A stretch of 64,000 nucleotides of DNA from Patescibacteria group bacterium (GTDB lineage: Bacteria; Patescibacteriota; Patescibacteriia; UBA2591; UBA6264). Location: contig JAIPGN010000001.1 of the NCBI GenBank assembly GCA_021735685.1, forward strand, positions 202,678 through 266,677, given 5' to 3'. Below the pieces are notes generated by a model, which was not told where the DNA came from, made no database searches, and was given only the letters and a program-made list of their open reading frames with translations. This document shows positions 30,810-63,059 of this stretch, one piece after another; within the stretch, counting starts at the first letter, position 1, and the number at the start of each line of letters is the position of its first letter. Made by a program: the position numbers and the translations under genes.

Positions 30810-30886
30810 ATGGTGCTTGTCACGAACTTCGGTTCTTTGGTTTTCGTAAGGTTCGCCTTTCGTTTACCAAGCAAGCACCATTTTTT
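30810..30886 (+). ncRNA. GGTGCTTG-stem structured element with two internal UUCG-tetraloop hairpins and a T-run (complex terminator or small RNA), copy A
   Basis: ATGGTGCTTG...CAAGCACCAT 10-bp closing stem encloses GAAC-TTCG-GTTC and GTAAGG-TTCG-CCTTTCG, then TTTTTT. It is about 75% identical to the copy at 62983-63059, whose closing-stem bases differ. Confidence 0.4.
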
Positions 30887-30984
30887 ATTTCCGAAAATGG
30901 AATTGTAAGTCGAAAAAATGACGAGAAAAAAGATTTAGCTTGTTAAGCTGCTCAAAACATTTCTGGGCGGCTTCTTTATATCTA

Positions 30985-31005
30985 CTTAGGAGCCGAGCTC
31001 CTAAG
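30985..31005. repeat. Hairpin CTTAGGAGC-cga-GCTCCTAAG (P3 family copy 2)
   Basis: Perfect 9-bp palindrome with a CGA loop in the 390-bp ORF-free region 30718-31106. Confidence 0.5.
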
Positions 31006-31106
31006 AGCTGCCTAGGTCCGACCTCGACAGGAAAGTAAATAAAAAAAAGACGCAAAGAGTAAAATCAAAGCATCTTTTTTATTGATTTAAGTATTTGAAT
31101 TTGTTT

Positions 31107-31805
31107 TTAGCTGGAATTACTATTAGCTTCCATTATTTTTTCATCTTTATCCACAGCTTTTTTGACCTTGTGGCGATAAGCATAAAATTGATAGATAGTG
31201 AAAATAGCCATGGAAGAGATAATAATGCCAATAACATTTAAGCTAAAAAGATAAAGCGATTGACGGGTAATTAAATTATTAGAAGTGGAGAGAGCTAGCC
31301 CCAAAGTACTTAAAGGAGGAATGAGGGCTACAGAGATAGCTACACCTGGCATGGATTCATTCATGTGTGGTCGAACCGTGGCTAAAGTTCCGGCTAAGCC
31401 GGAAATAATAGCAATAATGAAATAAGAGACTAGAAAATCTTCCGAGAAAAGGAAAAAGTTTTCTAAAACTTGAGCTTTTTTTATAAAAATAAAACCAACC
31501 AAAGCGCTAACTGCTACGCAGATGGCAAAGGATTTTACAATTGTAGCCAGAGAACGCAAAGTTAACTTAGGGTCCAGAATTACTATCCCTAGACCTAGGC
31601 TTAGTACGGAATAAAGCAGGGGAGCAACCAACATGGCTCCAACTAGAATAGCGGTATTATTCATAATAATCGCAAAGCTGGCGATTAAACTAGACAAGGC
31701 AGTCATGATAAAAAATTCTCGACGAGGTGAACTGTTTTCAATGAGTCTTTCAATGGTTTCGTTTTGTTCGTTATTGGTAATATTATTAAAAAGTTTCTTA
31801 AACAT
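31107..31805 (-). CDS. DUF389 (TIGR00341) family membrane protein
   Basis: ALSSLIASFAIIMNNTAILVGAMLVAPLLYSV matches the DUF389 NSxAVIIGAMLIxPLM signature. Multi-TM protein. Confidence 0.6.
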   Translation of the reverse strand: MFKKLFNNITNNEQNETIERLIENSSPRREFFIMTALSSLIASFAIIMNNTAILVGAMLVAPLLYSVLSLGLGIVILDPKLTLRSLATIVKSFAICVAVSALVGFIFIKKAQVLENFFLFSEDFLVSYFIIAIISGLAGTLATVRPHMNESMPGVAISVALIPPLSTLGLALSTSNNLITRQSLYLFSLNVIGIIISSMAIFTIYQFYAYRHKVKKAVDKDEKIMEANSNSS

Positions 31806-31856
31806 ATTTTCTTTATTTTAATTGTGATTAGCTTTAATTTATGATAATATATAAGT

Positions 31857-33860
31857 ATGATTAAGGCAAGTTGGGAAAAATTTTTAAGAATTATTATTAA
31901 ATTAGGGAGCGGGGCAATTTTATTTTTGCCTCTTTTTGTTTATCAACCAGTGCTTTATCCTTATATCTTTTCCAAGATTATTGTTTTTCAGATAATTGTA
32001 GAAATTCTTTTGGTGACTTGGCTTTTTCTTTTAATTTATGGCCCTCGAAAATATCGGTTAAATTTTCGCCAGCCATTTTTATTATCTCTAAGTATTTTTA
32101 TTTTAGTTTTAATTATTTCTTCTTTGGCGGGGGTAGATTTGTCCAGAAGCTGGTGGAGTATTCAAGAAAGAATGACGGGGATAATTACTTTGCTCCATTT
32201 TTATCTTTGGTTTTTGATTTTAGCCAGTGTTTTTTCGCAAAAAAAAGATTGGCTTTTCTTAATTAAAACTACTTTAATCTCTTCTTTTTTAGTGGGGCTT
32301 TATGGTTTAGGTCAAAAAATAGGATTTTCTTTTCTTTTGAAAGATGGAGCAACTCGGATGAGTGCTACTTTGGGTAATCCTGATTTTTTAGGAGTTTACT
32401 CCTTGCTTCATGTTTTTTTAGCGAGTATTTTATTTATTGAAACCAAAAAAATCTGGAAATTTTTGGGCGTTTTTCTAGCGCTTTTTAATTTAGTAATTTT
32501 ATTTTTAGCTGCTACGCGGGGAGCTATTTTAGCCTTGGGTTTTGTCATTTTTGCTTTACTTTTTTTCTTATTTTTCTGCGGGAAAACCAAAAAGATTTTG
32601 AAAGTTTTTTTATTGATTCTTTTTTTGATCTTAATTGGAGCTGGTTTATTCTTGCGAGCTAGTCAAGAACAAGAATGGTTCAAAAAAGTGCCTCTGCCTA
32701 TTAAAAGAATGACAAGATTAAGCCCCAGCGAAAATACAACGCGGCTAAAAGCTTGGCAAATTGGCTTACAAGCTTTTCAAGATCGTCCTTTTTTGGGTTG
32801 GGGGGTTGATAATTATAATGTAGCTTTTAATCGGCATTATGATCCTTGGTACTTAACCAAGGGCGATAATGCTACTTGGTTTGATAAAACCCATAATCAA
32901 GTTATTGATCTTTTGGCTTGTACGGGAATTTTGGGGACTTTGGCTTATTTAAGTATTTTCTTTTTTCTCTTATGGTTTTTAAGGAAAAAATATTTAGAAT
33001 CTAAGGCTACAGAGATTCGGGCTGGGCCATCGGCCTTTTCTATTATTACCTTAATCCTTCTTTTTGTTGCTTATTTTATTCAAAATTTATTTGTTTTTGA
33101 TACACCGAGTTCCCTGATTCTTTTCTATTTTGCTTTGGCTTTTAGCTATTTTATTTTGCAATCAAGAACAGCAGAGCCGGTTCAAGACAAGAAAAATGCT
33201 TTTCCCTTGCCGCTGCTTATATTTTTAATTCTTCTCATTATTCCTTGGTTAATGTTTAAAGTTAATCTTGAGCCTTGGCAAAAAAGTAAATTGGGGATAA
33301 GAGGAGTTCATTTCAATAGTCTTGATTTTCCGGCCGGTATGAAATGGTATGGTCAGGCTTTAGAGGGTTCGTCTTTTGTTGATGATGAAATCAGATTGCA
33401 ATTAGCTAAGCAAATTTCTGAAAAGCATGCCGAGGTGGATCAAGAAACCACAGATGCGGATTTACAAGTTTTAGCTCAGGCTACAGAATTAACTATTTTA
33501 GAATTTGAAGAAAGTATTCAGGCTCACCCCCAAGATGTTCGCTATTTTTTGTTTTTAGGACAATTATATAATTTGGCCAGCGTTTATCGTCCGGAATATT
33601 TAGAAAAGGCTCAGAAAATTTTAGAAAAAGCCCAAGAATTATCGCCGCGCCGTCAGCAAATTTATTTTGCCTTGGGTCGCACTCATCTAAGCTTGGGTAA
33701 TTATCAGAAAGCTCAGGAGCTTTTTCAAGAAGCTTATTTATTAGAGCCCGGCGCAGGATTGGCTCGTAATAATCTTATGAAAGTTCTTAGGATTTTTAAA
33801 GAAAATAATGTTGATTTGGCAACAGATTTAGAAAATTTTATAATTGAGGAAAATTGGTAG
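31857..33860 (+). CDS. O-antigen-ligase-like (Wzy_C) polytopic membrane protein with C-terminal TPR repeats
   Basis: About 12 TM segments with LAATRGAILAL (Wzy_C motif), and C-terminal TPR-like repeats (LGQLYNLASVY..., LGRTHLSLGNYQKAQELFQEAYLLEP). Confidence 0.6.
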   Translation: MIKASWEKFLRIIIKLGSGAILFLPLFVYQPVLYPYIFSKIIVFQIIVEILLVTWLFLLIYGPRKYRLNFRQPFLLSLSIFILVLIISSLAGVDLSRSWWSIQERMTGIITLLHFYLWFLILASVFSQKKDWLFLIKTTLISSFLVGLYGLGQKIGFSFLLKDGATRMSATLGNPDFLGVYSLLHVFLASILFIETKKIWKFLGVFLALFNLVILFLAATRGAILALGFVIFALLFFLFFCGKTKKILKVFLLILFLILIGAGLFLRASQEQEWFKKVPLPIKRMTRLSPSENTTRLKAWQIGLQAFQDRPFLGWGVDNYNVAFNRHYDPWYLTKGDNATWFDKTHNQVIDLLACTGILGTLAYLSIFFFLLWFLRKKYLESKATEIRAGPSAFSIITLILLFVAYFIQNLFVFDTPSSLILFYFALAFSYFILQSRTAEPVQDKKNAFPLPLLIFLILLIIPWLMFKVNLEPWQKSKLGIRGVHFNSLDFPAGMKWYGQALEGSSFVDDEIRLQLAKQISEKHAEVDQETTDADLQVLAQATELTILEFEESIQAHPQDVRYFLFLGQLYNLASVYRPEYLEKAQKILEKAQELSPRRQQIYFALGRTHLSLGNYQKAQELFQEAYLLEPGAGLARNNLMKVLRIFKENNVDLATDLENFIIEENW

Positions 33861-33872
33861 AAATGTTATAAT
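33844..33872 (+). promoter_or_regulatory. Sigma70-like promoter upstream of eno (TTGAGG, 17 nt, TGtTATAAT)
   Basis: -35 at 33844-33849; extended -10 TG at 33864-33865 and TATAAT at 33867-33872. It overlaps the 3' end of the upstream gene. Confidence 0.45.
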
Positions 33873-33902
33873 TAATTAAGTTTAATTTTAAATAAATTAA
33901 GT

Positions 33903-35192
33903 ATGAGCAAAATAGCCAAAATAAAAGCACGGGAAGTTTTAGATTCCCGCGGTAACCCCACCGTGGAGGCAACTGTTTTTTTGGAAAATAGTATTCAAGG
34001 AAAAGGTATGGTTCCTTCGGGGGCTTCAACCGGTAAACACGAAGCTGTGGAATTAAGAGATCAAAATCAAAGTCGTTATTCGGGAAAGGGAGTATTGAAT
34101 GCTTGTCAAAATGTAGAAAAAATTATTGCTCCAGTTTTAGTTGGTCAAGATGTAGATTTGATTAAAATGGATCAGAAGATGTTATCTTTGGATAGCACTA
34201 AAGATAAATCTAAGCTGGGCGCTAATGCTATTTTGGCGGTTTCTTTAGCCTTGGCTCGTGCTGAAGCTAAAGAAAAAAAATTACCCCTTTATCAATACTT
34301 AAGAGAAATATATCAATTGCCTTTAGTTGAATATCAATTACCAACTCCTTTATTTAATATTATTAACGGAGGTATTCATTCTGATTCTGGTTTAAGCGTG
34401 CAAGAGTTTATGGTGATTCCTCTTTCTCCAAAAACTTTTCGGGAAAAAATGAGAATAGGAGCAGAGGTTTTTGGAGCCTTGAAAGAGATTTTAAGAAAAA
34501 AGGGTTTGACTTTTGCTGTTGGAGATGAAGGAGGTTTTGCCCCAAAATTAAAAAACACAGAAGCAGCTTTTGATTTATTGGTAGCGGTTTCCGAATTCAC
34601 TAAACATACTTTAGGAGAAGAGATATTTTTTGGAGTTGATGTGGCCGCTTCTGTCTTTTTTCAAGAGAAATCGAAAAAACCTTATTTATTTGAAAATAAA
34701 AAGAGAAGCAGTGCGGAAATGGCTAAAATTTATTGGAAGTGGGTCAAGAAATATCCTTTGCTTTTTATTGAAGATCCTTTTGCTGAAGACGACTGGGATC
34801 CTTGGACTTCCTTAACTGCTAAGATTAATAGCTTGGAACAAGGTATTTTATTGGTTGGTGATGATTTATTTACTACCAATATTGAAAGATTGAGAAAAGG
34901 GATTGAAAAATCTTCGGTTAATTCTGTTTTAATTAAACCCAATCAAATTGGCACCTTAAGCGAGACCATAGATTGCATTAATTTAGCTCGGAAGCATAAT
35001 TACAAAGTGGTCATCTCTCATCGTTCCGGAGAAACCAATGATTCTTTTATCGCTGATTTAGCCGTAGCAGTTAATGCTGACTTTATCAAAGCTGGTGCTC
35101 CGAATAGAGGAGAAAGAATAGCTAAGTATAATCGATTAATGGAGATAGAAGGCGAATTATCTAATTTGTCGCAAGCACCAAAAAGAAAATAA
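33903..35192 (+). CDS. eno: Enolase
   Basis: N-terminal IAKIKAREVLDSRGNPTVEA and C-terminal SHRSGETND are enolase signatures. Confidence 0.95.
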   Translation: MSKIAKIKAREVLDSRGNPTVEATVFLENSIQGKGMVPSGASTGKHEAVELRDQNQSRYSGKGVLNACQNVEKIIAPVLVGQDVDLIKMDQKMLSLDSTKDKSKLGANAILAVSLALARAEAKEKKLPLYQYLREIYQLPLVEYQLPTPLFNIINGGIHSDSGLSVQEFMVIPLSPKTFREKMRIGAEVFGALKEILRKKGLTFAVGDEGGFAPKLKNTEAAFDLLVAVSEFTKHTLGEEIFFGVDVAASVFFQEKSKKPYLFENKKRSSAEMAKIYWKWVKKYPLLFIEDPFAEDDWDPWTSLTAKINSLEQGILLVGDDLFTTNIERLRKGIEKSSVNSVLIKPNQIGTLSETIDCINLARKHNYKVVISHRSGETNDSFIADLAVAVNADFIKAGAPNRGERIAKYNRLMEIEGELSNLSQAPKRK

Positions 35193-35231
35193 AAGAATTG
35201 TATTTAATAATTTTTTAACAAGTTAGAAAAA

Positions 35232-36803
35232 ATGAAAAAACAAGATCAACGAGCTATGTTGATTATCTTAGATGGTTGGGGCGTGGGTCTAAAAAGTAAA
35301 GGAAACGCGATTGAGATGGCCCAAAAGCCCTTTTTTGATAGCTTAAGAGCCAAGTATTCTTATACAGAAATTTGTGCTCATGGTTTAAAGGTTGGTCTTC
35401 CTCAAGGGCAACCAGGCAATTCAGAAGCTGGTCATTTGAACTTGGGTGCGGGAAGAGTTATCGAAAGTGATGCTGTGCATATTGATAGTTTGATTAAGGA
35501 CGGAAGATTTTTCAAAAACCCTGCTTTTTTAGAAGGAATTAGCCATTATCAAAAAAATAAATCGCAAGTGCATTTAATGGGTTTAGTTACTGAAGAAAAC
35601 AGCGCTCATTCTTCGCCAGGTCATTGGTTGGCGATGCTTAATTTTTTAAAAGAAAAAAAGGTGCCAAAGGTTTTTTTGCATCTTTTTACTGATGGTCGTG
35701 ATTCTTCGCAACACGCGGCTATTAGGATTTTAGAAAGATTTGAGGCTAAAATTAATGGCAATGGCTCTCCTTTGAAAGTGGAAATTGTTAGCATTGTGGG
35801 GCGTTTTTATGCCATGGATCGAGTTCAAGAATGGAGTAACATTGAGAAAGCGTATCAGCTTCTTACGGAAGGAGAGGGCTTCCAAGCCAGTAGTGCGGCT
35901 GAAGCGATTGTTAGCGCTTATAACCGGAAAGAAACCGATGAGTTTGTTAGTCCGACGGCAATTGTTGATAAAAAAGGAAAACCTCAGGGTTTGATTAAAG
36001 ACAAGGATTTGGTTTTCTTTATGAATTTACGTTCTGATCGAGCCAGAGAGTTAAGTAAAGTTTTTGTTCAGAAAGATTTTGAAAAGAAAAATTCCAAGGC
36101 TTTTTCACGAAAAAAGTTTTTAGAAAATTTGTTTTTTGTAGCTTTAACTGATTTTGGGCCAGATTTAGGTCGAATTCGAACTGCTTTCCCGAGCCCAAAA
36201 GTTGAAGAAACTTTGCCTTTTTGTCTGTCTTCTCGCCAGCAATTATATGTAGCCGAAAGTGAAAAATATGCCCATATTACTTTTTTCTTTAACGGAGGAT
36301 ATGATCATGTGGTTGCTGGAGAAAAAAGAATAATTGTTCCTTCGCCAGCAGTTGAGTCTTATGACCTTCAGCCAGAAATGAGCGCCGAGAAATTAAGTGC
36401 CAAAGTTATTCAAGAAATCAATGCCAATCAACCTGGTTTTGTGGCCCTTAATTTCGCTAATCCAGACATGGTTGGGCATACTGGTAATTTGATTGCCGCG
36501 ACCAAAGCTGTTGAATGCGTTGATCGCAATTTAAAGAAAGTAGTAGCTTGCGCTCAGAAAAATAAATACTCTGTAATTATTACTGCTGATCATGGAAATG
36601 CTGAAGAGATGATTGATTTAAGGACTGGGGAAATACGTACTACCCACACTATTAATCCCGTTCCTTTTATTTTATTTGGTCCAGATCTTAAGTCGGTTCA
36701 ATTAAAGAAAGACGGTTCTTTGTCTGATGTGGCGCCGACAATTTTAGAAATTTTAAATGAATCAAAGCCGCCAATAATGAAAGGGCGAAGCTTAATTAAG
36801 TAA
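35232..36803 (+). CDS. gpmI: 2,3-bisphosphoglycerate-independent phosphoglycerate mutase, copy 1
   Basis: LIILDGWG, GNSEAGHLNLGAGR (catalytic Ser) and the ITADHGN metal site. Confidence 0.9.
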   Translation: MKKQDQRAMLIILDGWGVGLKSKGNAIEMAQKPFFDSLRAKYSYTEICAHGLKVGLPQGQPGNSEAGHLNLGAGRVIESDAVHIDSLIKDGRFFKNPAFLEGISHYQKNKSQVHLMGLVTEENSAHSSPGHWLAMLNFLKEKKVPKVFLHLFTDGRDSSQHAAIRILERFEAKINGNGSPLKVEIVSIVGRFYAMDRVQEWSNIEKAYQLLTEGEGFQASSAAEAIVSAYNRKETDEFVSPTAIVDKKGKPQGLIKDKDLVFFMNLRSDRARELSKVFVQKDFEKKNSKAFSRKKFLENLFFVALTDFGPDLGRIRTAFPSPKVEETLPFCLSSRQQLYVAESEKYAHITFFFNGGYDHVVAGEKRIIVPSPAVESYDLQPEMSAEKLSAKVIQEINANQPGFVALNFANPDMVGHTGNLIAATKAVECVDRNLKKVVACAQKNKYSVIITADHGNAEEMIDLRTGEIRTTHTINPVPFILFGPDLKSVQLKKDGSLSDVAPTILEILNESKPPIMKGRSLIK

Positions 36804-36811
36804 TATTTTTT

Positions 36812-38383
36812 ATGTCTAATCAGATTCAGCCGGTACTTTTAATTATTCTTGATGGCTTTGGAGTTGCCTCTGTTGGGAACGGCAATGCGGTTACTTCTGC
36901 TAATTTGCCGTCTTTGGAGGGATTGGTTAATAATTATCCCACTACCACTCTTCAAGCTTCTGGCGAATCTGTTGGCCTATCTTGGGGCGAGCCAGGCAAT
37001 TCAGAGGTGGGTCATTTGAATATGGGAGGCGGTCGTATTATTTGGCAAAGTTTACCTCGTATCACTCAGGCCATTAGTGATAATAGTTTTTTTAAAAATA
37101 AAGCTTTCTTGAAAGCAGTCGAGCATGCTCAAAAAAATAATTCGGCTTTACATTTAGCTGGTTTAGTCTCTAGCGGGGGAGTGCATTCTTCTTTTGGTCA
37201 CTTGCACGCTCTTTTGGAATTAGCTGCTCAACAGGGTTTAGAAAAAGTTTATTTACATATTTTTCTAGATGGACGTGACTCTCCGCGAGATAGTGGCCAA
37301 GGTTTTGTAGAGGATCTAATTTCCAAGATGAGGAAATTAGGAGTTGGTCAAATTGCAACTTTGTCAGGACGTTTTTACGCTATGGATCGGGATAATAATT
37401 GGGACAGAATTGAAAGGGCTTATTTGGCTATGACTAAGGGTTTAGCGGAAGAAGAATTTGAAGATCCTTTAGTTGCGATTGAATCTTCTTATCAAAAAGG
37501 AATTTATGATGAGGAATTTGTGCCCGTAGTGATTAAAGAAAAAGATCAAGAGCCAATAGCAGTACAAGATAATGATGCTTTAATTTTCTTTAATTTTCGT
37601 CCAGATCGAGCTCGACAAATCACGGAAGCTTTTACCAAAAAAGAATTTGATGGTTTTCCGCGCGAGAAATTGAATAACTTTCTAATGGTTACTTTGACTG
37701 AATACGAGCAAGGATTGCCAGTAGAAATTGCTTTCCCAGTTGAAGACATTAAAAATCCTTTAGCCGAGACGATTAGTTCGGCTGGACATGGTCAATTTCA
37801 TATTGCCGAAACTGAAAAATATGCCCACGTTACTTTTTTCTTTAATGGCCGACGAGAAAAGAATTTCCCGCAAGAGGAAAGAATTCTAATCCCTTCTCCG
37901 CAGGTCAGTTCTTATGATCAAAAGCCAGAAATGTCTGCTCCTCAGGTTACTCATCAAGTTTTATGGGCCTTAGGAGATAAGAAATATAAGTTTATAGTAG
38001 TTAATTTTGCTAATCCAGATATGGTGGGTCATACGGGTAATTTAGGGGCAGTGATTAAATCTTTGGAAACTTTAGATGGTTTGGTGGGCAAAATTGTTGA
38101 TTTGGCCTTGAAGCAAAATTGGGTTAGTATCATTACTGCTGATCACGGCAATTGTGAAAAGATGATTAATTTAAGAAGCGGAGAGATTAATAAAGAGCAC
38201 ACTAATAATCCGGTTCCTTTTTTGGTCATTAAAAAAGGAGTAGAGGATCGGGGATTTTCTGGAGGTTTAAAAAATTTAAGCGCCTTAACTCCTAGTGGAG
38301 TTTTGGCTGATGTTGCTCCGACGATTTTAAAGATTATGAATTTGCCTCAGCCCCCAGAAATGCAAGGAATTTCTTTGGTTTAA
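36812..38383 (+). CDS. gpmI: 2,3-bisphosphoglycerate-independent phosphoglycerate mutase, copy 2 (divergent tandem paralog)
   Basis: LIILDGFG, GNSEVGHLNMGGGR and ITADHGN. Same 523-aa length as copy 1, with roughly 40-45% identity estimated by eye. Confidence 0.9.
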   Translation: MSNQIQPVLLIILDGFGVASVGNGNAVTSANLPSLEGLVNNYPTTTLQASGESVGLSWGEPGNSEVGHLNMGGGRIIWQSLPRITQAISDNSFFKNKAFLKAVEHAQKNNSALHLAGLVSSGGVHSSFGHLHALLELAAQQGLEKVYLHIFLDGRDSPRDSGQGFVEDLISKMRKLGVGQIATLSGRFYAMDRDNNWDRIERAYLAMTKGLAEEEFEDPLVAIESSYQKGIYDEEFVPVVIKEKDQEPIAVQDNDALIFFNFRPDRARQITEAFTKKEFDGFPREKLNNFLMVTLTEYEQGLPVEIAFPVEDIKNPLAETISSAGHGQFHIAETEKYAHVTFFFNGRREKNFPQEERILIPSPQVSSYDQKPEMSAPQVTHQVLWALGDKKYKFIVVNFANPDMVGHTGNLGAVIKSLETLDGLVGKIVDLALKQNWVSIITADHGNCEKMINLRSGEINKEHTNNPVPFLVIKKGVEDRGFSGGLKNLSALTPSGVLADVAPTILKIMNLPQPPEMQGISLV

Positions 38384-38405
38384 TAAATAATAAATAAAAT
38401 GTTTT

Positions 38406-38753: not shown

Positions 38754-38767
38754 TTACATTTTATTTT

Positions 38768-41461: not shown

Positions 41462-41463
41462 TT

Positions 41464-47052: not shown

Positions 47053-47199
47053 AATTTCCAGAAAAAATTTGTTCAGCTTCTGCCTAGATCAAACCTAGGT
47101 AAATAATTCCCAAAATGTACGAGGTCGAACCTCGTACGTCGCATGGTTAAGCTGTTCTAGGGGCAAATGTACGAGGTCGAACCTCGTACATGTTTTTTT
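47053..47199 (+). repeat. P1 paired-palindrome element, extended copy B (leader AATTTCCAGAAAAAATTTGT..., then two 25-bp palindromes, then T8)
   Basis: Palindromes at 47115-47139 (one mismatch) and 47167-47191, followed by TTTTTTTT. It lies immediately after the murJ stop. Confidence 0.7.
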
Positions 47200-47268
47200 T
47201 GAATATTGACAAGTTGGCTATTTTTTGCTATTCTCGTAATATCTTTAAAAAATGCAAGGAGGTGCGCC

Positions 47269-47754: not shown

Positions 47755-47893
47755 AATTTCTAGAAAAAATTTGTCTAGACTTGTCTAAGCTGGGCTTATC
47801 CAAACAAATGTACGAGGTCGAACCTCGTACATCGCATGGTTAAGCTGTTCTAGAGGCAAATGTACGAGGTCGAACCTCGTACATATTTTTTTT
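47755..47893 (+). repeat. P1 paired-palindrome element, extended copy C
   Basis: Leader AATTTCTAGAAAAAATTTGT..., perfect palindromes at 47808-47832 and 47860-47884, then T9. The 78-bp core is about 97% identical to copy B. Confidence 0.7.
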
Positions 47894-47984
47894 GAGACAA
47901 AAGTTTTGGGGGCGAAATTTCCAAATCTTGTCAGCTCCTAAACTTTATCATTGTCCTGTCTCTTCGGCTTTAGTCTGTCTAAAA

Positions 47985-50871: not shown

Positions 50872-50878
50872 GAAAGAA

Positions 50879-50950
50879 TAGCAGGAGCGGGGATCGAACC
50901 CGCGACATGTGCCTTATGAAGACACCGCTCTGCCACTGAGCTATCCTGCC
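50879..50950 (-). tRNA. tRNA with CAU anticodon (elongator Met or Ile2/lysidine type)
   Basis: Reverse complement GGCAGGA-TA-GCTC-AGTGGCA-GAGC-G-GTGTC-TTCATAA-GGCAC-ATGTC-GCGGG-TTCGATC-CCCGC-TCCTGCT-A forms a cloverleaf with a G1-U72 wobble, a CAT anticodon and no encoded CCA. Confidence 0.8.
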
Positions 50951-50951
50951 A

Positions 50952-51026
50952 TGGTTGCGGGGACAGGATTCGAACCTGTATCCTCCAGGTTATGGGCCTG
51001 GCGAGCTGCCATTGCTCTACCCCGCG
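50952..51026 (-). tRNA. tRNA-fMet-like (CAU anticodon, C1:A72 mismatch, encoded CCA)
   Basis: Reverse complement CGCGGGG-TA-GAGC-AATGGCA-GCTC-G-CCAGG-CCCATAA-CCTGG-AGGAT-ACAGG-TTCGAAT-CCTGT-CCCCGCA-A-CCA. The unpaired C1/A72 is an initiator hallmark. One nucleotide separates it from the next tRNA. Confidence 0.8.
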
Positions 51027-52359: not shown

Positions 52360-52365
52360 AAAAAT

Positions 52366-52626: not shown

Positions 52627-52630
52627 TCTT

Positions 52631-53056: not shown

Positions 53057-53065
53057 TTTAAAAAT

Positions 53066-57232: not shown

Positions 57233-57515
57233 TTTTTTTGGATTGACAAAAGGTCAATTTTGTGATATCTTGATGATATAAGAATGAATAAATTATTAGT
57301 TTAATTTAAAAAAATGGAATTTAAAAAATTAAGTCATCAGGAGAAAGAAGAAGAGCAAGAAGCTTTAATTGCTCGAGAAGAAGAGGAGGAGGAAGAAAAT
57401 GAAGAAGCTTTAATTGCTGAAGAAGAGGCCGAAGAAAAAGAGGAGAGAAAAAGAAAAAAAGCTTTATTTTATAAAAAGATTAAAAAAGACAAAGAACAAG
57501 ATTAGCTTTAACTAT

Positions 57516-60500
57516 ATGGAAATGTCTAAAAAAAATAACAAACCTGAGGAAAAAAAGGCAACAGGTGAAACTAAAGAAGGAAGTAGCTATGAAGCTCAGA
57601 TAAAAAAAGCAGAAAATATTGATGCTTTAATGGCAACTTTAGATGATATTCCTAATTTTTTTGAGGAAGAAAATGAGGATAAAGCTAAAGAAGAATTTAA
57701 GGAAAAATTTGAAATTCTTAAAAAAGAAGTTGAGGCTCGTAAAGAAGATGAAGACGTCGTTGAATATGGCGGCTTTAATTTTTTTACTACAGAATATGGA
57801 TTAAGAAGCAAGATAAGAGAGCTGTTATTGGGAGAAAGCTTTAAAGATGAAATAGAAAATAAAGACGCAGAAGAACAAGAAACAGAAAAGGAGAAAGCAA
57901 ATAATGAAAAAGAAGAAGAGAGAAAAAAAAGGGAAAAAGAGGCTCTAGAAAAGAAAGCTGAGGAAAAAGAAATGCTTTATTCTACTAAAATTGATTTAAT
58001 GGAAGATCTTGATGATAATGAAAAGAAAGAATTAAAAGATAAGGTAAGATTTGTTAATAAAGAAAAAGTAGCTGAAGAGTGTCAAGGAGATTTTGAGGAA
58101 TTGTTAAAATTGTCTGCCCAAGAGGAAGGGGAGATAGTTAAAAAGAAAAAAGAAGACAAAGATGAGAAAGTTGAAGAAGGTAAAGAGGAAGAGGAGAGTG
58201 AAGAGCAAATAGAAATTGATCTTGAAGGATTACCAACAGAAGGGGAAGGTAAGTATCAGGAAAAAATAAAAGAAATGAGCGAGAAATTAGATTTACCTGA
58301 GGAAGAAATTGAGCAAATTGTTAACCAACAAAAAGCTAATTTAGTTGAATTAACAGCTCAGAAATCTAAAAAGAAAGAAAAGAAATGGAAGAAAATAGGC
58401 AAAACTTTGGGAATTTATGCGGTTCTTGGCGGCGGCTTAGGTTTATTAACTGGTGGCTTAGGCATTGGTATTGGTCTTGCGGCCGGAAGAATCATTGATA
58501 CTATTTTTAAAGGAAAGAAAACTAAAAAGGATCAAGAAAAGGCCCAACAAGAAGTTAATGCCATTTTATTAAAAACCAAAGAGGCTGAAGGAGAAGCCGA
58601 TAAAGAAGAAGACGAAGGCACGAAAAGTGTTTTGGATTCTTTTTATGATAATATTTTTACTGAATTGTCTTTGGCTAAGCGCAATCAAATCGAGGGCCAG
58701 AATAAAGAAAAGAGTGAGCTTGGAAAAAAAATTTCTAAACTAGAAGAAAGTTATCGCCCAGAAGATAAAGAAAAATTAGCAGAACTTTATCAAACGAGAA
58801 GGGAACAGCAAAAAGAAAAAATCCAAGATTATTTAATGGCAAAGGGCTTAGAAGGAGAAGAATTAGAAAAAAGAGTGAAATTGTCAGCTCAGTTAGTAGA
58901 ATTAGATGATAATCAAAAAATAATGGAACTTGATTTTGCTAAACGCAAGGCCAGTAAAGTCGCTAAGATCTTTAGCAAACTAGATTCAATTTTAAGTCAT
59001 CCTGCTCTTTTGGGTGGAGCCAAGCAGGCAGAGAGCCAAAATAAAGAAAAGATAATTACTGCTAGTATTTTTGCAGTAGCTGGTGTTTTGGCTCGTTCTT
59101 GCCCAATAGTTAGGAATGTTTTAATGGCTTATGCGGGTATGAAATTAGGCTCTGCTGCCGCTGATTTAATGTTTGGAAAAAACAAAGAACTAAGAGAGGT
59201 TTCTGGCGAACAGCTTAGCCTAGAAAGCAGCGTTGAGGACCTTAATCGAGCTAAGGCCCAACTTTTAGACCCTAAATATAAAGAAAAAAATCCTTTAGAA
59301 CATGCTAAATTACAAGAAAAAATATTTGCTATTGATCGTGCCAGAATGGAGAAAGCCTTAGGAAAGACAGAGGCAACAGAGAGGGAAGATGAGGAGGCTG
59401 AAGGTGAAAAAATTGAAACTGATTCAGAGGAAGAGAAGATAGAGGTAAAAGAAGAAGAGGAAATAAAAGAAGCTGTAGAGGAAAAATATGGTTACATTGT
59501 TCAGGCCAACCAAGAATTAGAAGAAGCAATTAAAAAAAGAAGAGCAGCTCAGGGAGCACATAAAGGAATGAAAATATTTTTAGGAATAGCTGGCGGAGTA
59601 GCAGGTTGGTTTTTGGGAGAATATATGAATAAGCAAAATGAGGCTAAGGAAGCAGAGAAGGCCCAAGCAAAGAAATTAGAAGAAACGCAAAAAGATTTTC
59701 CTAAAGAAAATGTTAATAATGAAACTCCTCTTGACAAGCAAATAAAAATGTCAGCTGCCGAATTAGAAGCGCAAGAAAAGGAGCTGGCTCGAATTGAAGC
59801 AGAAAGAAGAATGGCTGAACTTAATAAGCCCGTTGTAGTAGAAAAGGGAGATACGGTTTGGGGAGTGTGCGAAAAGCAATTAGAAGAAAGAGTAGATAAT
59901 TGGGAAGAATTAAGCCAGGCGGAAAAAGATTATTTGATTGATTGGTATAAAGATAAAGTAGTGGCTAATCCCGCAGAGTATGGAATTGATGGTGGTAATG
60001 CCAGTTCTTTAAAAATTGGCTCGGAAATTAAAGTTGCTAATTTATTTAAAGATCAGGGTGAAATGGTTAAAGCTTTAGCTAAAGCACAGGGCTTAAGTAC
60101 GGAACAAGTCCAAAATATTATGAATAATCGAGAATTGATTGGTAATGTTATGAGTCAAAAATTAGAAGAAGTTCCCGGAGATAAATTATTAGAAGCAGTG
60201 CGAGTGATGGGCGGAACTGATCAAGCGGGGGCTGGCTTTGTGGCTGAAGTTGAAAAAAGAGCCACTGAGGTTTTAGGGGAAGCTGTTACTTCTGATCAAA
60301 CTCAAACTATATTAAATAATCCTGAGGTTTTTGGGAAAATAATGGATTCTGGGGTTGAGAGTCTTGAAGAAGTGGAAAATGAAACTTTGGGTCAAGCCTT
60401 TAGGCTGCTTAAGAATACTGATAGCGTGGGCAAAGAATTACTTCAAGAGGCTCAAGAAGTAGAAGGAGCGATAGGAGAAGAGTTAGTAGAAAGAGCTAGT

Positions 60501-61001
60501 GGTAGTTGGGAAAGGATTAAGAATATTATCGGTGGAGACCCCTATGACAATCAATTTCATGCTGGTTATGACATTGACCCTAATAAGCCCTTGATGAGCG
60601 TTTATCAGAATGATTGGATATCTCAAAAAGCTGACGAGGCTTTAAGTAAAGGAGATGAATTAATTAGTCAAGCTGAAAAAATGCAGGAATTGATTGGCAA
60701 GAGTGACTCTTGGTGGCATAAACTTTGGGGTATTGAGGGTAAAATTGAAAAATTAAAAGACACCTTTGATCAAAATACTGACATCTTTAATCAGGTGAAA
60801 GAAACTTACTATAATGGTTGGCAGCAAGGAAAATCTTCGGCTCAAGAATGGTTTAATCTAACCGGAGATAAAAAGATTCTTGGTGATTATTTTGGAGGAG
60901 ATTTTTTCGAAAAAAATAACTCTCTTTTGAGCGAAAAAATATCAAAATTACAAGAATTAATTAACCAACTAGGCAGTCGATATAGCAATGGAGCAGTATA
61001 A
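57516..61001 (+). CDS. Large (~1160 aa) E/K-rich coiled-coil membrane protein with glycine-zipper TM segments and a C-terminal LysM-like domain, hypothetical
   Basis: Start chosen at ATG 57516 (MEMSKK). Low-complexity charged N-terminal ~300 aa; TM GIYAVLGGGLGLLTGGLGIGIGLAAG; two further hydrophobic segments; VVVEKGDTVWGVCEKQ...IGSEIKV is LysM-like; the C-terminal ~350 aa is globular. Confidence 0.55.
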   Translation: MEMSKKNNKPEEKKATGETKEGSSYEAQIKKAENIDALMATLDDIPNFFEEENEDKAKEEFKEKFEILKKEVEARKEDEDVVEYGGFNFFTTEYGLRSKIRELLLGESFKDEIENKDAEEQETEKEKANNEKEEERKKREKEALEKKAEEKEMLYSTKIDLMEDLDDNEKKELKDKVRFVNKEKVAEECQGDFEELLKLSAQEEGEIVKKKKEDKDEKVEEGKEEEESEEQIEIDLEGLPTEGEGKYQEKIKEMSEKLDLPEEEIEQIVNQQKANLVELTAQKSKKKEKKWKKIGKTLGIYAVLGGGLGLLTGGLGIGIGLAAGRIIDTIFKGKKTKKDQEKAQQEVNAILLKTKEAEGEADKEEDEGTKSVLDSFYDNIFTELSLAKRNQIEGQNKEKSELGKKISKLEESYRPEDKEKLAELYQTRREQQKEKIQDYLMAKGLEGEELEKRVKLSAQLVELDDNQKIMELDFAKRKASKVAKIFSKLDSILSHPALLGGAKQAESQNKEKIITASIFAVAGVLARSCPIVRNVLMAYAGMKLGSAAADLMFGKNKELREVSGEQLSLESSVEDLNRAKAQLLDPKYKEKNPLEHAKLQEKIFAIDRARMEKALGKTEATEREDEEAEGEKIETDSEEEKIEVKEEEEIKEAVEEKYGYIVQANQELEEAIKKRRAAQGAHKGMKIFLGIAGGVAGWFLGEYMNKQNEAKEAEKAQAKKLEETQKDFPKENVNNETPLDKQIKMSAAELEAQEKELARIEAERRMAELNKPVVVEKGDTVWGVCEKQLEERVDNWEELSQAEKDYLIDWYKDKVVANPAEYGIDGGNASSLKIGSEIKVANLFKDQGEMVKALAKAQGLSTEQVQNIMNNRELIGNVMSQKLEEVPGDKLLEAVRVMGGTDQAGAGFVAEVEKRATEVLGEAVTSDQTQTILNNPEVFGKIMDSGVESLEEVENETLGQAFRLLKNTDSVGKELLQEAQEVEGAIGEELVERASGSWERIKNIIGGDPYDNQFHAGYDIDPNKPLMSVYQNDWISQKADEALSKGDELISQAEKMQELIGKSDSWWHKLWGIEGKIEKLKDTFDQNTDIFNQVKETYYNGWQQGKSSAQEWFNLTGDKKILGDYFGGDFFEKNNSLLSEKISKLQELINQLGSRYSNGAV

Positions 61002-61042
61002 TTGATTATTTCATAGTTTTAAAAAATATAAGTTAAATTATT

Positions 61043-61363
61043 ATGAATGAAGAAAAAAATCCAACAGAAGCTTTTGCTGATAGCTTGATTCAGCAAGCCA
61101 ATATTACTCTCCCAGAAGAAGAATTGGAAGTTTATCGCAATAAATTAATGCAGCAGATTGAAAAAAGATTAGGTTTAATATCCTTAGATGCCTTAGATGA
61201 TAAAGGTTTAGAGGATTATGAAAAATTATTAGGAGAAAATCCAGACCCGAATGATCCTCAAGTGCGAGATTTTTTTAGCTCTCGAATTGAAAATTACGAA
61301 GAAAAAATTAAAGAAGCTTTAGATAATTTTAAGGCCGAATTTCTTTCTGCTTTAAATAAATAA
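61043..61363 (+). CDS. Hypothetical acidic helical protein (106 aa)
   Basis: ORF with reasonable context downstream of the large protein. No motif recognised. Confidence 0.4.
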   Translation: MNEEKNPTEAFADSLIQQANITLPEEELEVYRNKLMQQIEKRLGLISLDALDDKGLEDYEKLLGENPDPNDPQVRDFFSSRIENYEEKIKEALDNFKAEFLSALNK

Positions 61364-61386
61364 AATCTTAAAGCTATTTCTGAAAA

Positions 61387-61413
61387 AAGTTTGGAGGCTG
61401 AACCTCCAAACTT
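61387..61413. repeat. P2 palindrome AAGTTTGGAGG-ctgaa-CCTCCAAACTT (copy 1, loop in inverted orientation)
   Basis: Perfect 11-bp arms. The CTGAA loop is the reverse complement of the TTCAG loop in copies 2 and 3. It lies 60 nt upstream of the transposase-like ATG. Confidence 0.7.
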
Positions 61414-61474
61414 TTTCGTTCCTTTTTTTAAAATTATTTCAAAATATGTTTATAATGATTATAATAAAAAACAT

Positions 61475-62185
61475 ATGAGCAAAAGAAAGGTTCAATTTAT
61501 TAATGATGAGTATTATCACGTCTATAATCGAGGAGTTGATAAGAGAATAGTTTTTGAGTCTTCAGAAGATTTAGAAAGATTCTTTTTAAGTATGCAAGAG
61601 TTTAACGATATAAATCCTATTGGCAGCATTTATGAGGAAAAATTAATCAAAAATAGAATAGAAAAGTTTGGAGGTTCAGCCTCCAAACTTTCAGCCTCTG
61701 ATTTTTCCCCGAAAGAAAAGGAGAAATTAGTAGAATTCATTTGTTATAATTTATTGCCAAATCATTATCATTTTTTTCTGAAGCAATTAGTAGATAATGG
61801 GATTCAGAAATTTATGCATAGAATATCAACGGGCTATACGGGATTTTTTAACAGGAAAAATAAGCGCAACGGTTCTTTGTTTCAAGGCAGATATAAAGCA
61901 ATTCATGTTAATTCTAATGAGTATTTGTTGCACTTAAGCACATATATTAATCTTAATCACCAGGTACATAATTTAGAAAAGTTTGGAGGTTCAGCCTCCA
62001 AACTTTTTAAATCTAGTTGGAGAGAATATTTAGGGCAGGATCAAAAAGAAATTTGCGCTAAGGATATTATTTTAGATCAATTTGACTCTAGTAATAATTA
62101 TCAAAAATTTAGCGAAGAAGGTTTAGAAAGAATTAAGGAGAGCAAAGAAATTCAAAAATATTTATTAGAGGAATTAAATAATTAA
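61475..62185 (+). CDS. IS200/RAYT-like HuH (Y1) transposase-family protein with two in-frame palindrome-encoded inserts
   Basis: YHVYNRGVDKRIVF (beta1), LLPNHYHFFL (HuH-type HxH motif) and SLFQGRYKAIHVNSNEYLLHLSTYINLNH (Y-containing helix) are colinear with the Y1 transposase/TnpA_REP fold. The sequence EKFGGSASKL occurs twice and is encoded by P2 palindromes. Start chosen at ATG 61475. Confidence 0.55.
   Translation: MSKRKVQFINDEYYHVYNRGVDKRIVFESSEDLERFFLSMQEFNDINPIGSIYEEKLIKNRIEKFGGSASKLSASDFSPKEKEKLVEFICYNLLPNHYHFFLKQLVDNGIQKFMHRISTGYTGFFNRKNKRNGSLFQGRYKAIHVNSNEYLLHLSTYINLNHQVHNLEKFGGSASKLFKSSWREYLGQDQKEICAKDIILDQFDSSNNYQKFSEEGLERIKESKEIQKYLLEELNN
61664..61690. repeat. P2 palindrome AAGTTTGGAGG-ttcag-CCTCCAAACTT (copy 2, inside the transposase-like CDS)
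   Basis: Perfect arms. Translated in-frame as KFGGSASKL. Confidence 0.7.
61979..62005. repeat. P2 palindrome AAGTTTGGAGG-ttcag-CCTCCAAACTT (copy 3, inside the transposase-like CDS)
   Basis: Identical to copy 2 and 315 bp downstream of it. It is translated in the same frame as copy 2. Confidence 0.7.
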
Positions 62186-62208
62186 TTATTGTTAATAAAT
62201 GAATTACT

Positions 62209-62922
62209 ATGACTAGCCTTCAAAACAAGATTATTGATAAAGTTAGAGAAAGTGGAGTTAAAGAAGGGGAGGATTATTTTTCTTTTCACCAACGCAGATT
62301 TGAGCATTTATTTGAATTATTAGATAAGCAAGAAGAAAGCAAAAGAAATTTATTAGAGGTTGGTTTTGGTTTTTTGCATTCTCTAATAGCAGCTCATTAT
62401 TTGGGTTATCAAAATTTATTTGGAATAGACATAGACATTAACGAAAATATTTTAAATAAGGTAAACAAAAAATTTAATTTTATTCTTAAACAATGCGATT
62501 TGGCAAAAGATAAAATTCCTTTTGAGACATCTTTTTTTAATTTTGTTTTATTGACCGAGACTTTAGAGCACTTTAATTTTCATCCTCGGAGAGCAATTAA
62601 TGAGCTTTATCGGGTTTTGAAACCAGGCGGTCGTTTAATTATCACCACCCCCAACCTTTTTCGACTAAACAATCGGATAAAGTTTTGTCTCCGAAAAAGC
62701 ATTTATGATGACATTAAAAAAGAAGAAATCATCCATTATCGGGAATACTCTTCAAAAGAGATTAAATATTTATTAAGGGAAGCTGGCTTTAAAAATATCA
62801 AAATTAATTATATTGATTTTGGGTATCCAGATAGAAATAAGCTTAATAAATTAGTGAATAAAATTTTTGGCTTTTTCTTTCCTGGATTAAGGCCAAATAT
62901 TTTGGCAATTGCGATTAAATAG
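62209..62922 (+). CDS. Class I SAM-dependent methyltransferase (type 11)
   Basis: LLEVGFGFLHSL is motif I and VLKPGGRLIITTPN the post-motif II region. Confidence 0.8.
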   Translation: MTSLQNKIIDKVRESGVKEGEDYFSFHQRRFEHLFELLDKQEESKRNLLEVGFGFLHSLIAAHYLGYQNLFGIDIDINENILNKVNKKFNFILKQCDLAKDKIPFETSFFNFVLLTETLEHFNFHPRRAINELYRVLKPGGRLIITTPNLFRLNNRIKFCLRKSIYDDIKKEEIIHYREYSSKEIKYLLREAGFKNIKINYIDFGYPDRNKLNKLVNKIFGFFFPGLRPNILAIAIK

Positions 62923-62982
62923 GTTTTTGAGTTATCCACAGACAAAGGGTTGTGTAAAAATAATAATCTGTTAAGATAAATA

Positions 62983-63059
62983 ACGGTGCTTATTTTGAAC
63001 TTCGGTTCTTTGGTTGACGAAAGGTTCGCCTTTCAGATGCCAGATAAGCACCATTTTTT
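62983..63059 (+). ncRNA. GGTGCTTG-stem structured element with two internal UUCG-tetraloop hairpins and a T-run, copy B
   Basis: GGTGCTTAT...ATAAGCACC 9-bp closing stem encloses GAAC-TTCG-GTTC and GAAAGG-TTCG-CCTTTC, then TTTTTT. The closing stem differs from copy A while pairing is preserved. Confidence 0.4.

What the first reader, a model, noticed from the sequence alone, without database searches (positions are those of the whole stretch)
30810..63059. Family of complex stem-loop elements with paired UUCG-tetraloop hairpins and compensatory changes in the closing stem
Copies at 30810-30886 and 62983-63059 share an identical inner core (GAACTTCGGTTCTTTGGTT ... GGTTCGCCTTTC, forming two hairpins capped by UUCG tetraloops). 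Their outer closing stems differ in sequence but both pair (ATGGTGCTTG/CAAGCACCAT versus GGTGCTTAT/ATAAGCACC). Both end in T6. That is more structure than an intrinsic terminator needs. Conservation of structure with base changes that keep the pairing is the signature of a functional RNA, or of a protein-recognised DNA cruciform.
Basis: seen in the sequence. Interest (0 to 1): 0.6.

Follow-up and report, generated by a model that had tools for sequence, protein, structure and literature searches.

The report
New small structured RNA genes, Patescibacteria
The two stem-loop elements are real and look like copies of a previously undescribed small-RNA gene family of uncultivated Patescibacteria: each has its own promoter and a three-armed fold, and the RNA is better conserved than the DNA around it, but its function is unknown.

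Summary
Both copies, 30810-30886 and 62983-63059 on the + strand, fold into the same three-way junction. P1 closes the 5' and 3' ends. P2 is GAAC-UUCG-GUUC. P3 is a long arm tipped by GG-UUCG-CC. T6 follows.

That stretch holds a 12-nt box, AGTT(A/G)TCCACAG (core = the DnaA-box consensus), then 8 nt, a -35 TTGnnn, a 16-nt spacer, a -10 TAnnnT, and a start at (A)YGG. These therefore look like self-contained small-RNA genes rather than decorated terminators.

A third, divergent member lies at 11622-11679. Homologues occur in at least four other Patescibacteria assemblies. Copy B is a positional orthologue upstream of a HEAT-repeat gene. Its RNA is 95-100% identical where neighbouring DNA is 65-90% identical and the neighbouring protein 66-82%.

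Eight of 24 base pairs show changes on both sides that keep pairing. Indels break any reading frame. Nothing matches in Rfam 15, the tRNA scan, phages or plasmids.

The same box-plus-promoter also drives other hairpin RNAs (24806-24850, 25971-26015) and apparently leaderless toxin-antitoxin operons. No expression data were available. Protein binding is my inference.

The parts
30757..30768 (+). Upstream box of copy A, AGTTGTCCACAG (DnaA-box-like core TTGTCCACA), 8 nt before the -35
30777..30804 (+). Promoter of copy A: -35 TTGCTA, 16-nt spacer, -10 TAAAAT
   Evidence: called by the scan; aligned with the other copies
30810..30886 (+). Small RNA copy A. P1 is 30810-30820 with 30871-30881. P2 is 30824-30835 (GAAC-UUCG-GUUC). 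P3 is 30839-30868, with a U-rich 4x4 internal loop and a GG-UUCG-CC tip. T6 is 30881-30886.
62930..62941 (+). Upstream box of copy B, AGTTATCCACAG (exact DnaA-box consensus TTATCCACA)
62950..62977 (+). Promoter of copy B: -35 TTGTGT, 16-nt spacer ending in TGT, -10 TAAGAT (extended -10 type). The simple scan did not call it because the -35 is weak.
62983..63059 (+). Small RNA copy B. P1 is 62983-62993 with 63044-63054. P2 is 62997-63008. P3 is 63012-63041, with a UGAC/AGAU internal loop holding a tandem G-A. T6 is 63054-63059. It is a positional orthologue of L098 9616-9692, L102 1029-1105 and L074 3719-3797.
63099..63120 (+). Canonical hairpin + T-run terminator 40 nt after copy B. It may be a back-up terminator and is conserved in L098 and L102.
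11577..11585 (-). TTATCCACA box in inverted orientation, 3 nt upstream of the -35 of copy H
11589..11616 (+). Promoter of copy H: TTGACA, 16 nt, TG, TATATT (11 of 12 matches)
11622..11679 (+). Divergent third family member H. It has the same 5' AUGGUGCUUGG / CCAAGCGCCAU closing stem. P2 is GGGC-UUUG-GCCC and P3 is a different hairpin, but the fold is again a three-way junction.
11684..11713 (+). Separate canonical terminator of copy H
24753..24850 (+). Related mini-gene F1. It has the same architecture: box AGTTATCCCCAG, -35 TTGTTA, -10 TATATT. The RNA at 24806-24850 is a single 40-nt hairpin with a UUCG loop (AUGGAGCGA...UCGCUCCAU) followed by a T-run.
25918..26016 (+). Related mini-gene F2. 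It is identical to F1 across box, promoter and RNA (the 110-nt repeat scores 98%). Together the two flank a wHTH-nucleotidyltransferase + 148-aa gene pair.
7675..7741 (-). The same box (ATTATCCACAA) + 8 nt + TTGACA promoter, here in front of a protein operon (wHTH 196 aa + 200 aa). It is part of the same promoter class, not of the RNA family.

Best explanation
Each element is a complete small non-coding RNA gene of a Patescibacteria lineage.

A sigma-70-type promoter is preceded, at a fixed 8-9 nt, by the 12-nt box AGTT(A/G)TCCACAG. The promoter has -35 TTGnnn, a 16-nt spacer usually ending in TG, and -10 TAnnnT. Transcription would start at the A, or at the next G, of (A)YGG.

The transcript of about 72 nt folds into a three-way junction. 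P1 (10-11 bp) joins the 5' and 3' ends. P2 is a 4-bp hairpin with a C(UUCG)G loop. P3 is a 13-position arm with a 4x4 internal loop and a G(UUCG)C tip. U6 follows P1 directly, so the closing helix probably doubles as the intrinsic-terminator hairpin. That would leave an RNA with both ends sealed in a helix.

Almost every base is in a helix or in an inert UUCG loop. P2 and the P3 tip are invariant in every close copy, while other pairs covary. I therefore infer that the RNA works by being bound by a protein, as a scaffold or decoy, and not by antisense pairing.

Shown here: sequence and structure conservation, covariation, conserved promoter elements, positional orthology, absence of a reading frame. 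Inferred: transcription, the exact 5' and 3' ends, termination at U6, identity of the factor that binds the box (DnaA is the obvious candidate), and the protein-binding mode of action.
For: Family and structure: there are 7 distinct sequences from at least 5 assemblies: A, B and H in the window, E in L072, C and D in L074, and B' in L098. L102 is identical to B. Across them 96% of cells are paired and 8 of 24 pairs change on both sides. 0 of 500 shuffles reach these values, and slid controls give at most 1.

Promoter: box, -35 and -10 are conserved in register while the spacers vary. The scan calls the promoters of A and H. The box motif occurs 6 times in the window against 0.68 expected, four of them in front of hairpin RNAs.

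Independence from upstream genes: H and F2 have no co-directional gene upstream.

Orthology and selection: B lies upstream of the same HEAT-repeat gene in L098, L102 and L074, where the neighbouring proteins are 49-82% identical. The RNA is 100% and 94.8% identical where flanking intergenic DNA is 65-91% identical. Most substitutions between B and C fall in stems and keep pairing.

Not coding: C and D carry a 1-nt indel before P2, and C then hits TAG.

No known family: Rfam 15 at gathering and E-value thresholds, and ARAGORN.
Against: There are no expression data, so transcription, the ends of the RNA and termination at U6 are all inferred. Only 7 distinct sequences are available, and several are close relatives. 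Covariation counts are therefore modest and partly rest on an alignment fitted to the model (H in particular). The simple terminator scan does not accept P1+T6, because the 'loop' is 52 nt. Canonical terminators follow B, H and D, so the true 3' end may lie further downstream. The -35 of B is weak. No partner protein or target is identified. The invariance of P2 could also reflect a DNA-level site.
Confidence: 0.68

Rival explanations
1. REP- or MITE-like selfish repeats. On this view the hairpins are DNA-level sites for a Y1 (RAYT/IS200-like) transposase, and the RNA fold is incidental.
For: The elements are multi-copy, and A/E-type copies sit in non-syntenic places. A Y1_Tnp-like ORF lies 800 nt upstream of B. 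F1 and F2 are identical 108-nt units flanking a two-gene cassette. The genome holds other palindromic repeat families.
Against: The hairpins that flank and interrupt the Y1_Tnp-like ORF belong to a different family, AGTTTGGAGG..CCTCCAAACTT. B keeps its position across genomes whose neighbouring proteins are 49-82% identical. The arms covary instead of keeping one transposase-binding sequence. No target-site duplication is visible. The conserved -35/-10 spacing and the G-U bias are strand- and transcription-specific.
Confidence: 0.12
2. Elaborate intrinsic terminators, or RNA-stability elements, that belong to the upstream gene.
For: A and B lie 93 and 61 nt after the stops of ileS and a methyltransferase gene. 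Both end in T6.
Against: H and F2 have no co-directional upstream gene. Every copy carries its own conserved promoter between the upstream gene and the fold. In H the three-way junction is separate from a canonical terminator. Ordinary terminators in this genome are simple hairpins.
Confidence: 0.06
3. A cis-regulatory leader (riboswitch or attenuator). P1 formation would terminate transcription before a downstream gene.
For: A three-way junction closed by P1 directly before a U-run recalls purine-type aptamers. B, C and G all sit upstream of the small-ORF/HEAT/LTD gene group.
Against: The downstream genes of A, H, F1 and F2 are on the opposite strand. The junction strands are short, U-rich and not conserved, and the loops are UUCG, so there is no pocket and no loop-loop contact. 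A second terminator and a separate promoter lie between B and the next gene. No riboswitch model matches.
Confidence: 0.05
4. A leaderless small ORF that encodes a hydrophobic peptide of about 30 aa (a type I toxin-like peptide).
For: A, D and E start with ATG at the predicted start site. Operons with the same promoter appear to be leaderless. The conceptual peptides are hydrophobic.
Against: B starts ACG. C and D are frame-shifted relative to A, B and E, and C stops after 10 codons. Three of the four codon changes between A and E alter the amino acid, while C38-G55 becomes U38-A55 in the internal loop. The T-run terminator lies inside the would-be ORF.
Confidence: 0.03
5. A DNA-level protein site. 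One version is the GAAC-N4-GTTC palindrome of P2 acting as a LexA (Cheo-type) operator. The other is a cruciform.
For: P2 fits GAAC-N4-GTTC exactly and is invariant in all close copies.
Against: The motif occurs nowhere else in the 64 kb, not even near recA. H replaces P2 with GGGC-UUUG-GCCC and keeps the pairing. The P1 arms are 52 nt apart, which is unfavourable for cruciform extrusion.
Confidence: 0.03

Closest known systems
Bacterial small non-coding RNA genes with their own sigma-70 promoter and a Rho-independent terminator (the general class)
   Same: It is a stand-alone intergenic unit: promoter, a structured RNA of about 75 nt, then a U-run. It is conserved more strongly than the surrounding DNA.
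   Different: It has no accessible single-stranded seed region. The terminator stem is the closing helix of a three-way junction rather than a separate 3' hairpin. It matches no Rfam family.
Y RNAs (eukaryotic, and bacterial Rsr-associated YrlA) and other protein-bound RNAs closed by a 5'/3' stem with a U-tail
   Same: The 5' and 3' ends pair in a long stem followed by a U-tail, and the RNA body is mostly helical. This is the basis for the protein-binding inference. The resemblance is recalled from general knowledge and is not a test.
   Different: There is no match to the Rfam models of these families. No Rsr/Ro gene was seen nearby, and there is no tRNA-like domain.
REP elements with RAYT transposases, and Correia-type MITEs that carry promoters
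   Same: These are short, repeated, palindrome-rich intergenic units. A RAYT-like ORF is close to copy B.
   Different: That ORF is associated with another hairpin family. The elements here show covarying arms, a fixed orthologous position and an external promoter.
Three-way-junction RNAs: purine-type riboswitch aptamers, hammerhead ribozymes, 5S rRNA
   Same: The P1-P2-P3 topology and the size class (about 60-120 nt) are the same. In B-type copies one arm has a purine-rich internal loop.
   Different: No conserved junction nucleotides, no hammerhead core (CUGANGA...GAAA), and no Rfam hit. Several diverged paralogues occur per genome.
DnaA boxes (consensus TTATCCACA) acting as promoter-proximal regulatory sites
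   Same: The core of the upstream box equals the DnaA-box consensus (exact for B, H and the operon at 7741; one mismatch for A and F). It sits where class I activators usually bind, about -45 to -56.
   Different: Binding is untested. Here a single box sits at a fixed distance from the -35 in a whole class of promoters for small RNAs, toxin-antitoxin operons and HTH genes. I found no report of this.

Membership tests
Any Rfam 15 family | Score at or above the family's gathering threshold | tested here: not met
   Only two tRNA-Met genes pass in the window. E-value searches around A, B, H and L074 G/C give only chance-level hits. The best is the PyrG leader at 26.5 bits against a threshold of 65.
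tRNA / tmRNA | Cloverleaf or tmRNA model | tested here: not met
   ARAGORN finds only the two tRNA-Met genes at 50878-51026.
Canonical intrinsic terminator | G+C-rich hairpin with a 3-8 nt loop directly followed by a T-run | tested here: not met
   The T6 is present, but the stem encloses 52 nt. The scan calls no terminator at A or B, yet it does call simple ones at 63099-63120, 63319-63340 and 11684-11711.
Canonical intrinsic terminator | Serves a co-directional upstream gene | tested here: not met
   H and F2 have no upstream + strand gene. All copies have their own promoter.
Stand-alone bacterial sRNA gene | Own promoter, conserved in register across copies | tested here: met
   Box, -35 and -10 align in all copies while the spacers diverge. 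A and H are called by the scan.
Stand-alone bacterial sRNA gene | A discrete transcript is detected | not testable with these tools
   No RNA-seq or end-mapping data were available.
Structured functional RNA | Base pairs kept through compensatory changes; RNA conserved above its flanks | tested here: met
   8 of 24 pairs change on both sides, 96% of cells pair, 0 of 500 shuffles reach this, and slid controls give at most 1. RNA identity is 95-100% against 65-91% for the flanks. Caveat: only 7 distinct sequences.
REP/RAYT system | Short simple palindromes that flank the RAYT gene | tested here: not met
   The RAYT-like ORF (about 61476-62185) is flanked and interrupted by a different 27-nt hairpin family.
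MITE | Terminal inverted repeats of fixed sequence, target-site duplication, variable insertion sites | tested here: not met
   The arms covary. No duplication is visible at the unit borders. B stays in one place across four lineages. A/E-type copies are not syntenic, so mobility on long time scales is not excluded.
Riboswitch / leader | Constant co-directional downstream gene and conserved junction or loop nucleotides | tested here: not met
   Downstream genes of A, H, F1 and F2 are on the other strand. Junctions are variable and U-rich.
Protein-coding small ORF | Reading frame kept among homologues | tested here: not met
   1-nt indels in C and D; a stop codon in C; B lacks ATG.
DnaA box | 9-mer TTATCCACA or a one-off variant | tested here: met
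   Exact at 62932, 11585(-) and 7739(-). One mismatch at 30759, 24755 and 25920.
DnaA box | Bound by DnaA; the same motif clustered at oriC of this lineage | tested here: inconclusive
   There is a weak cluster of one-off motifs at 25.9-26.9 kb, and TGTGGAC/GTCCACA repeats at L083 2560-2680. No oriC or dnaA locus was available, and binding cannot be tested here.
LexA (Cheo-type) operator | GAAC-N4-GTTC also present at SOS genes such as recA | tested here: not met
   Only the two RNA copies match in the 64 kb, and none is near recA at 2902-3954.
Hammerhead ribozyme | Conserved core CUGANGA ... GAAA at the junction | tested here: not met
   Read from the sequence: the junction strands are U-rich. 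No Rfam hit.

The most novel reading that the evidence does not exclude
A clade of Patescibacteria would run a regulon of 'mini-genes' from one promoter type, in which a single DnaA-box-like element sits at about -50 and a start at AUGG follows. The regulon would include several families of ultra-stable, end-sealed hairpin or three-way-junction RNAs together with leaderless toxin-antitoxin and HTH operons. If DnaA, or another box-binding factor, drives it, these RNAs would be protein-binding decoys. They would couple replication status to defence and addiction modules in organisms with very few regulators.
Probability: 0.15. Interest if true: 0.8.

Novelty: new member of a known kind. Interest (0 to 1): 0.55.

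Why it matters
Almost nothing is known about regulatory RNAs or promoter logic in the uncultivated Patescibacteria, which have tiny genomes and few transcription factors. This locus offers three things. The first is a candidate new structured RNA family with covariation and positional orthology. The second is an uncommon design in which the helix joining the two RNA ends also appears to serve as the terminator stem. The third is a shared upstream box, identical to the DnaA-box consensus, that links several small-RNA families with toxin-antitoxin operons. All three can be tested with metatranscriptomes or in vitro transcription.

Tried and rejected
- **Genome-collection pattern scan.** It gave 68 hits, 66 of them chance matches in G+C-rich genomes. 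Only L011 and L045 were real.
- **Viral contig scans.** Only chance matches.
- **Phage and plasmid BLAST.** No match.
- **Orthologues of copy A through ileS synteny.** Relatives with 62-66% identical IleRS have no copy there, so A is not syntenic.
- **LexA/Cheo-box reading of P2.** Rejected.
- **Hammerhead, riboswitch, SRP, 5S and tRNA-like readings.** No model match, and no conserved core is visible in the alignment.
- **K-turn in P3.** The 4x4 loop UGAC/AGAU holds a tandem G-A but is symmetric. It is replaced by U-U pairs in A and E, so it is not a defining feature.
- **Coding potential.** Rejected by the indels.
- **Antisense targets.** The 19-nt core has no complementary site in the window at up to 3 mismatches.
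- **oriC near 26 kb.** There is a gene-orientation switch at 27.7 kb and a weak cluster of box-like motifs, but no sign change in GC skew. Left open.
- **Literature searches.** Nothing found on such RNAs or on this promoter box in Patescibacteria.
Full report
**Observation.** The two elements lie at 30810-30886 and 62983-63059 on the + strand, as described. The composite pattern GAACTTCGGTTC-N-GGTTCGCC and the 19-mer core occur only there, against 0 and 0.02 expected in shuffles.

Both fold into the same three-way junction, at -29.1 and -26.9 kcal/mol with z-scores of -5.6 and -4.9.
- P1 is 10-11 bp and joins the two ends.
- P2 is GAAC-UUCG-GUUC.
- P3 is a 13-position arm with a 4x4 internal loop and a GG-UUCG-CC tip.
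- T6 follows.

The similarity continues about 55 nt upstream. The conserved positions are:
- a 12-nt box, AGTT(A/G)TCCACAG;
- 8 nt further, a -35 TTGnnn;
- a 16-nt spacer that usually ends in TG;
- a -10 TAnnnT;
- 4-5 nt later, the first base of P1, (A/G)YGG.

The bases between these elements differ from copy to copy. That is how a promoter under selection looks. The scan tool calls the promoters of A (TTGCTA-16-TAAAAT) and H (TTGACA-16-TATATT with TG, 11 of 12 matches). B has a weak -35 and an extended -10, and the scan does not call it.

**Source organism.** The window's IleRS is 100% identical to a protein of a 'Patescibacteria group bacterium' carried on a 268,542-bp contig. The nearest relatives are 62-66% identical, and further hits are labelled Paceibacterota, Nealsonbacteria and Parcubacteria.

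**More members.**
- A covariance model built from five sequences finds a third, divergent member in the window at 11622-11679, at 28.6 bits and E = 5e-6. It has the same 5' AUGGUGCUUGG closing stem, a P2 of GGGC-UUUG-GCCC and a different P3. It folds again as a three-way junction and is followed by a separate canonical terminator.
- Collection scans gave two copies, C and D, in a low-G+C MAG contig and in six metagenome contigs of the same organism (L011, L045, L069-L076).
- They also gave one copy, E, in L072.

**Orthology.** B sits between a methyltransferase gene and a group formed by a small ORF, a HEAT-repeat gene and a giant LTD-domain gene. That HEAT-repeat protein is a narrow family with 18 hits.
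- Its homologues at 82% identity (L098-L101) and 66% identity (L102, L103) have the same gene order and carry the RNA at the same place. L098 differs from B at 4 positions. L102 is identical over 77 of 77 nt.
- In L074 (49% identity) the same position holds copy C, preceded by a 150-nt relative, G.
- In L104-L107 (45% identity) the position holds only the G-type RNA.

Within the aligned intergenic region the RNA is the best-conserved segment. It is 100% and 94.8% identical, against 87% for the promoter and 65-91% for the rest. This argues for vertical inheritance under purifying selection and against a recently moving repeat.

**Structure support.** Counts were made on 7 distinct sequences.
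- 96.2% of cells form standard pairs.
- 8 of 24 pairs change on both sides: three in P1, two in P2, one at the base of P3 and two in upper P3.
- No shuffle out of 500 reaches these values.
- Partners slid by 1-3 columns give 0-1 such pairs.

On the hand-checked five-sequence alignment, which excludes H, 5 pairs change on both sides. Seven G-U cells stand against two A-C/C-A cells, which favours the + strand as RNA. The caveats are that the sequences are few and related, and that H was aligned by the model.

**Not coding, not a known RNA.** C and D carry a 1-nt insertion before P2, which shifts any frame, and C then meets TAG. B lacks ATG. Rfam 15 at gathering and at E-value thresholds, and ARAGORN, give nothing. 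Phage and plasmid collections give no match. Literature searches returned nothing relevant.

**A wider promoter class.** The same box + promoter + AUGG architecture precedes other units.
- Two copies of a single-hairpin RNA, F1 at 24806-24850 and F2 at 25971-26015. They are identical across box, promoter and RNA, and the 110-nt repeat scores 98%. They flank a wHTH-nucleotidyltransferase pair.
- The 150-nt G RNA.
- In the window and in relatives, protein operons whose ATG lies at the predicted start site, so they appear to be leaderless: AbiEi/AbiEii, Gp49-HTH, an HTH_17 gene, and the wHTH + 200-aa pair at 7741(-).

A blind scan for NYGG...CCAT + T4 structures closed by 9 bp found only units that carry this promoter. 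The core of the box equals the DnaA-box consensus TTATCCACA (established knowledge). It is exact at 62932, 11585(-) and 7739(-), and one-off at 30759, 24755 and 25920. Whether DnaA binds it cannot be tested here.

**Mechanism.** I commit to independent small-RNA genes. The transcript's closing helix plus U6 probably acts as the terminator and seals both ends. The RNA probably acts through a bound protein. The reasons are that there is no accessible seed, the UUCG caps are structural, and P2 and the P3 tip are invariant in sequence while other pairs covary. Transcription, RNA ends, termination and the protein partner are all inferences.

**Rivals.**
- A REP/MITE-like element. The nearby Y1_Tnp-like ORF is tied to a different hairpin family.
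- A terminator of the upstream gene. H and F2 have no such gene.
- A cis-leader. Downstream genes are often on the other strand, and the junctions are not conserved.
- A small ORF. The frame is broken.
- A DNA operator or cruciform. GAAC-N4-GTTC occurs nowhere else, and H covaries at P2.

**Verdict.** The feature is real and is probably a new family within the known kind 'bacterial small RNA gene'. It has an unusual end-sealing design and an intriguing shared promoter box. Interest is moderate, at 0.55. It would be higher if the box-controlled regulon proves real.

Noticed in passing
window 24753-24850 and 25918-26016: There are two identical mini-genes. Each has the box AGTTATCCCCAG, a promoter, a 40-nt UUCG-capped hairpin RNA and a T-run. 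They lie in direct orientation around a wHTH-nucleotidyltransferase gene and a 148-aa gene. This looks like a duplicated or recombined cassette.
   Followed up: partly
window 24858, 61388, 61665, 61980: A REP-like hairpin family, AGTTTGGAGG(N4-5)CCTCCAAACTTT. Two copies lie in frame inside a Y1-transposase-like (RAYT-like) ORF and each encodes KFGGSASKL. One lies in the C-terminus of the 148-aa ORF and encodes KFGGATPKL. This in-frame insertion of palindromes recalls Rickettsia palindromic elements.
   Followed up: partly
window 3959-4048, 47113-47202, 47806-47895: A repeat of two hairpins, ATGTACGAGGTCGAACCTCGTACAT, spaced by about 30 nt, present in three intergenic regions.
   Followed up: no
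window 30731-30751 and 30988-31008; L072 1205-1225: A 21-nt palindrome, CTT(G/A)GGAGCCGAGCT(T/C)CTAAG, flanks copy A on both sides. A related copy lies in L072, about 700 nt downstream of copy E.
   Followed up: no
window 7675-7741 (-); L079 6566(-) and 4643(-); L080 9880(-); L088 3603(-); L089 2278(-): The box + TTGACA promoter also precedes AbiEi/AbiEii, Gp49-HTH, HTH_17 and wHTH operons. In most of them the ATG sits at the predicted transcription start, so the mRNAs appear to be leaderless.
   Followed up: partly
L074 3504-3660; L104 about 9529-9690: A 150-nt RNA, G, has the same promoter and the closing stem AUGGUGUUAG/CUAACACCAU. It contains an internal tandem duplication, and each copy holds a UAAC-UUCG-GUUA hairpin resembling P2. 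It occupies the same locus as B and C upstream of the HEAT-repeat gene.
   Followed up: partly
window 63185-63331: A small ORF of about 48 aa, MLFLRRNIKRELFCPFLIF..., has its own promoter-like site (63137-63165) and terminator (63319-63340). The peptide is conserved in L098, and the region aligns with L102.
   Followed up: partly
window about 24.7-27.7 kb; L083 2440-2680: Gene orientation switches from - to + at 27.7 kb. One-off DnaA-box-like motifs cluster at 25.9-26.9 kb next to an AT-rich stretch (25800-25900). A relative has TGTGGAC/GTCCACA repeats beside an AT-rich stretch in the equivalent neighbourhood. This could be an origin, but GC skew does not change sign.
   Followed up: partly
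L011 / L045 (CAZDOL010000005.1): This MAG contig is labelled 'uncultured Gammaproteobacteria'. It carries the Patescibacteria-type RNA genes and promoter, has 33% G+C, and encodes proteins 49-62% identical to the window's. The label or the binning is probably wrong.
   Followed up: partly
window 50878-51026 (-): Two adjacent tRNA-Met (CAT) genes, probably an initiator and an elongator.
   Followed up: no
window 35232-36803 and 36812-38383: Tandem paralogous genes of 523 aa each with about 76-86% identical DNA segments. The syntenic genes in relatives are phosphoglycerate mutase (iPGM). A relative, L079, has tandem enolase genes instead.
   Followed up: no
L086 end (= window about 63019); L085 start (= window about 61979): Short-read unitig contigs of the same organism break inside copy B and at a REP-like hairpin. 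This is consistent with these sequences being repeated in the genome or community.
   Followed up: no
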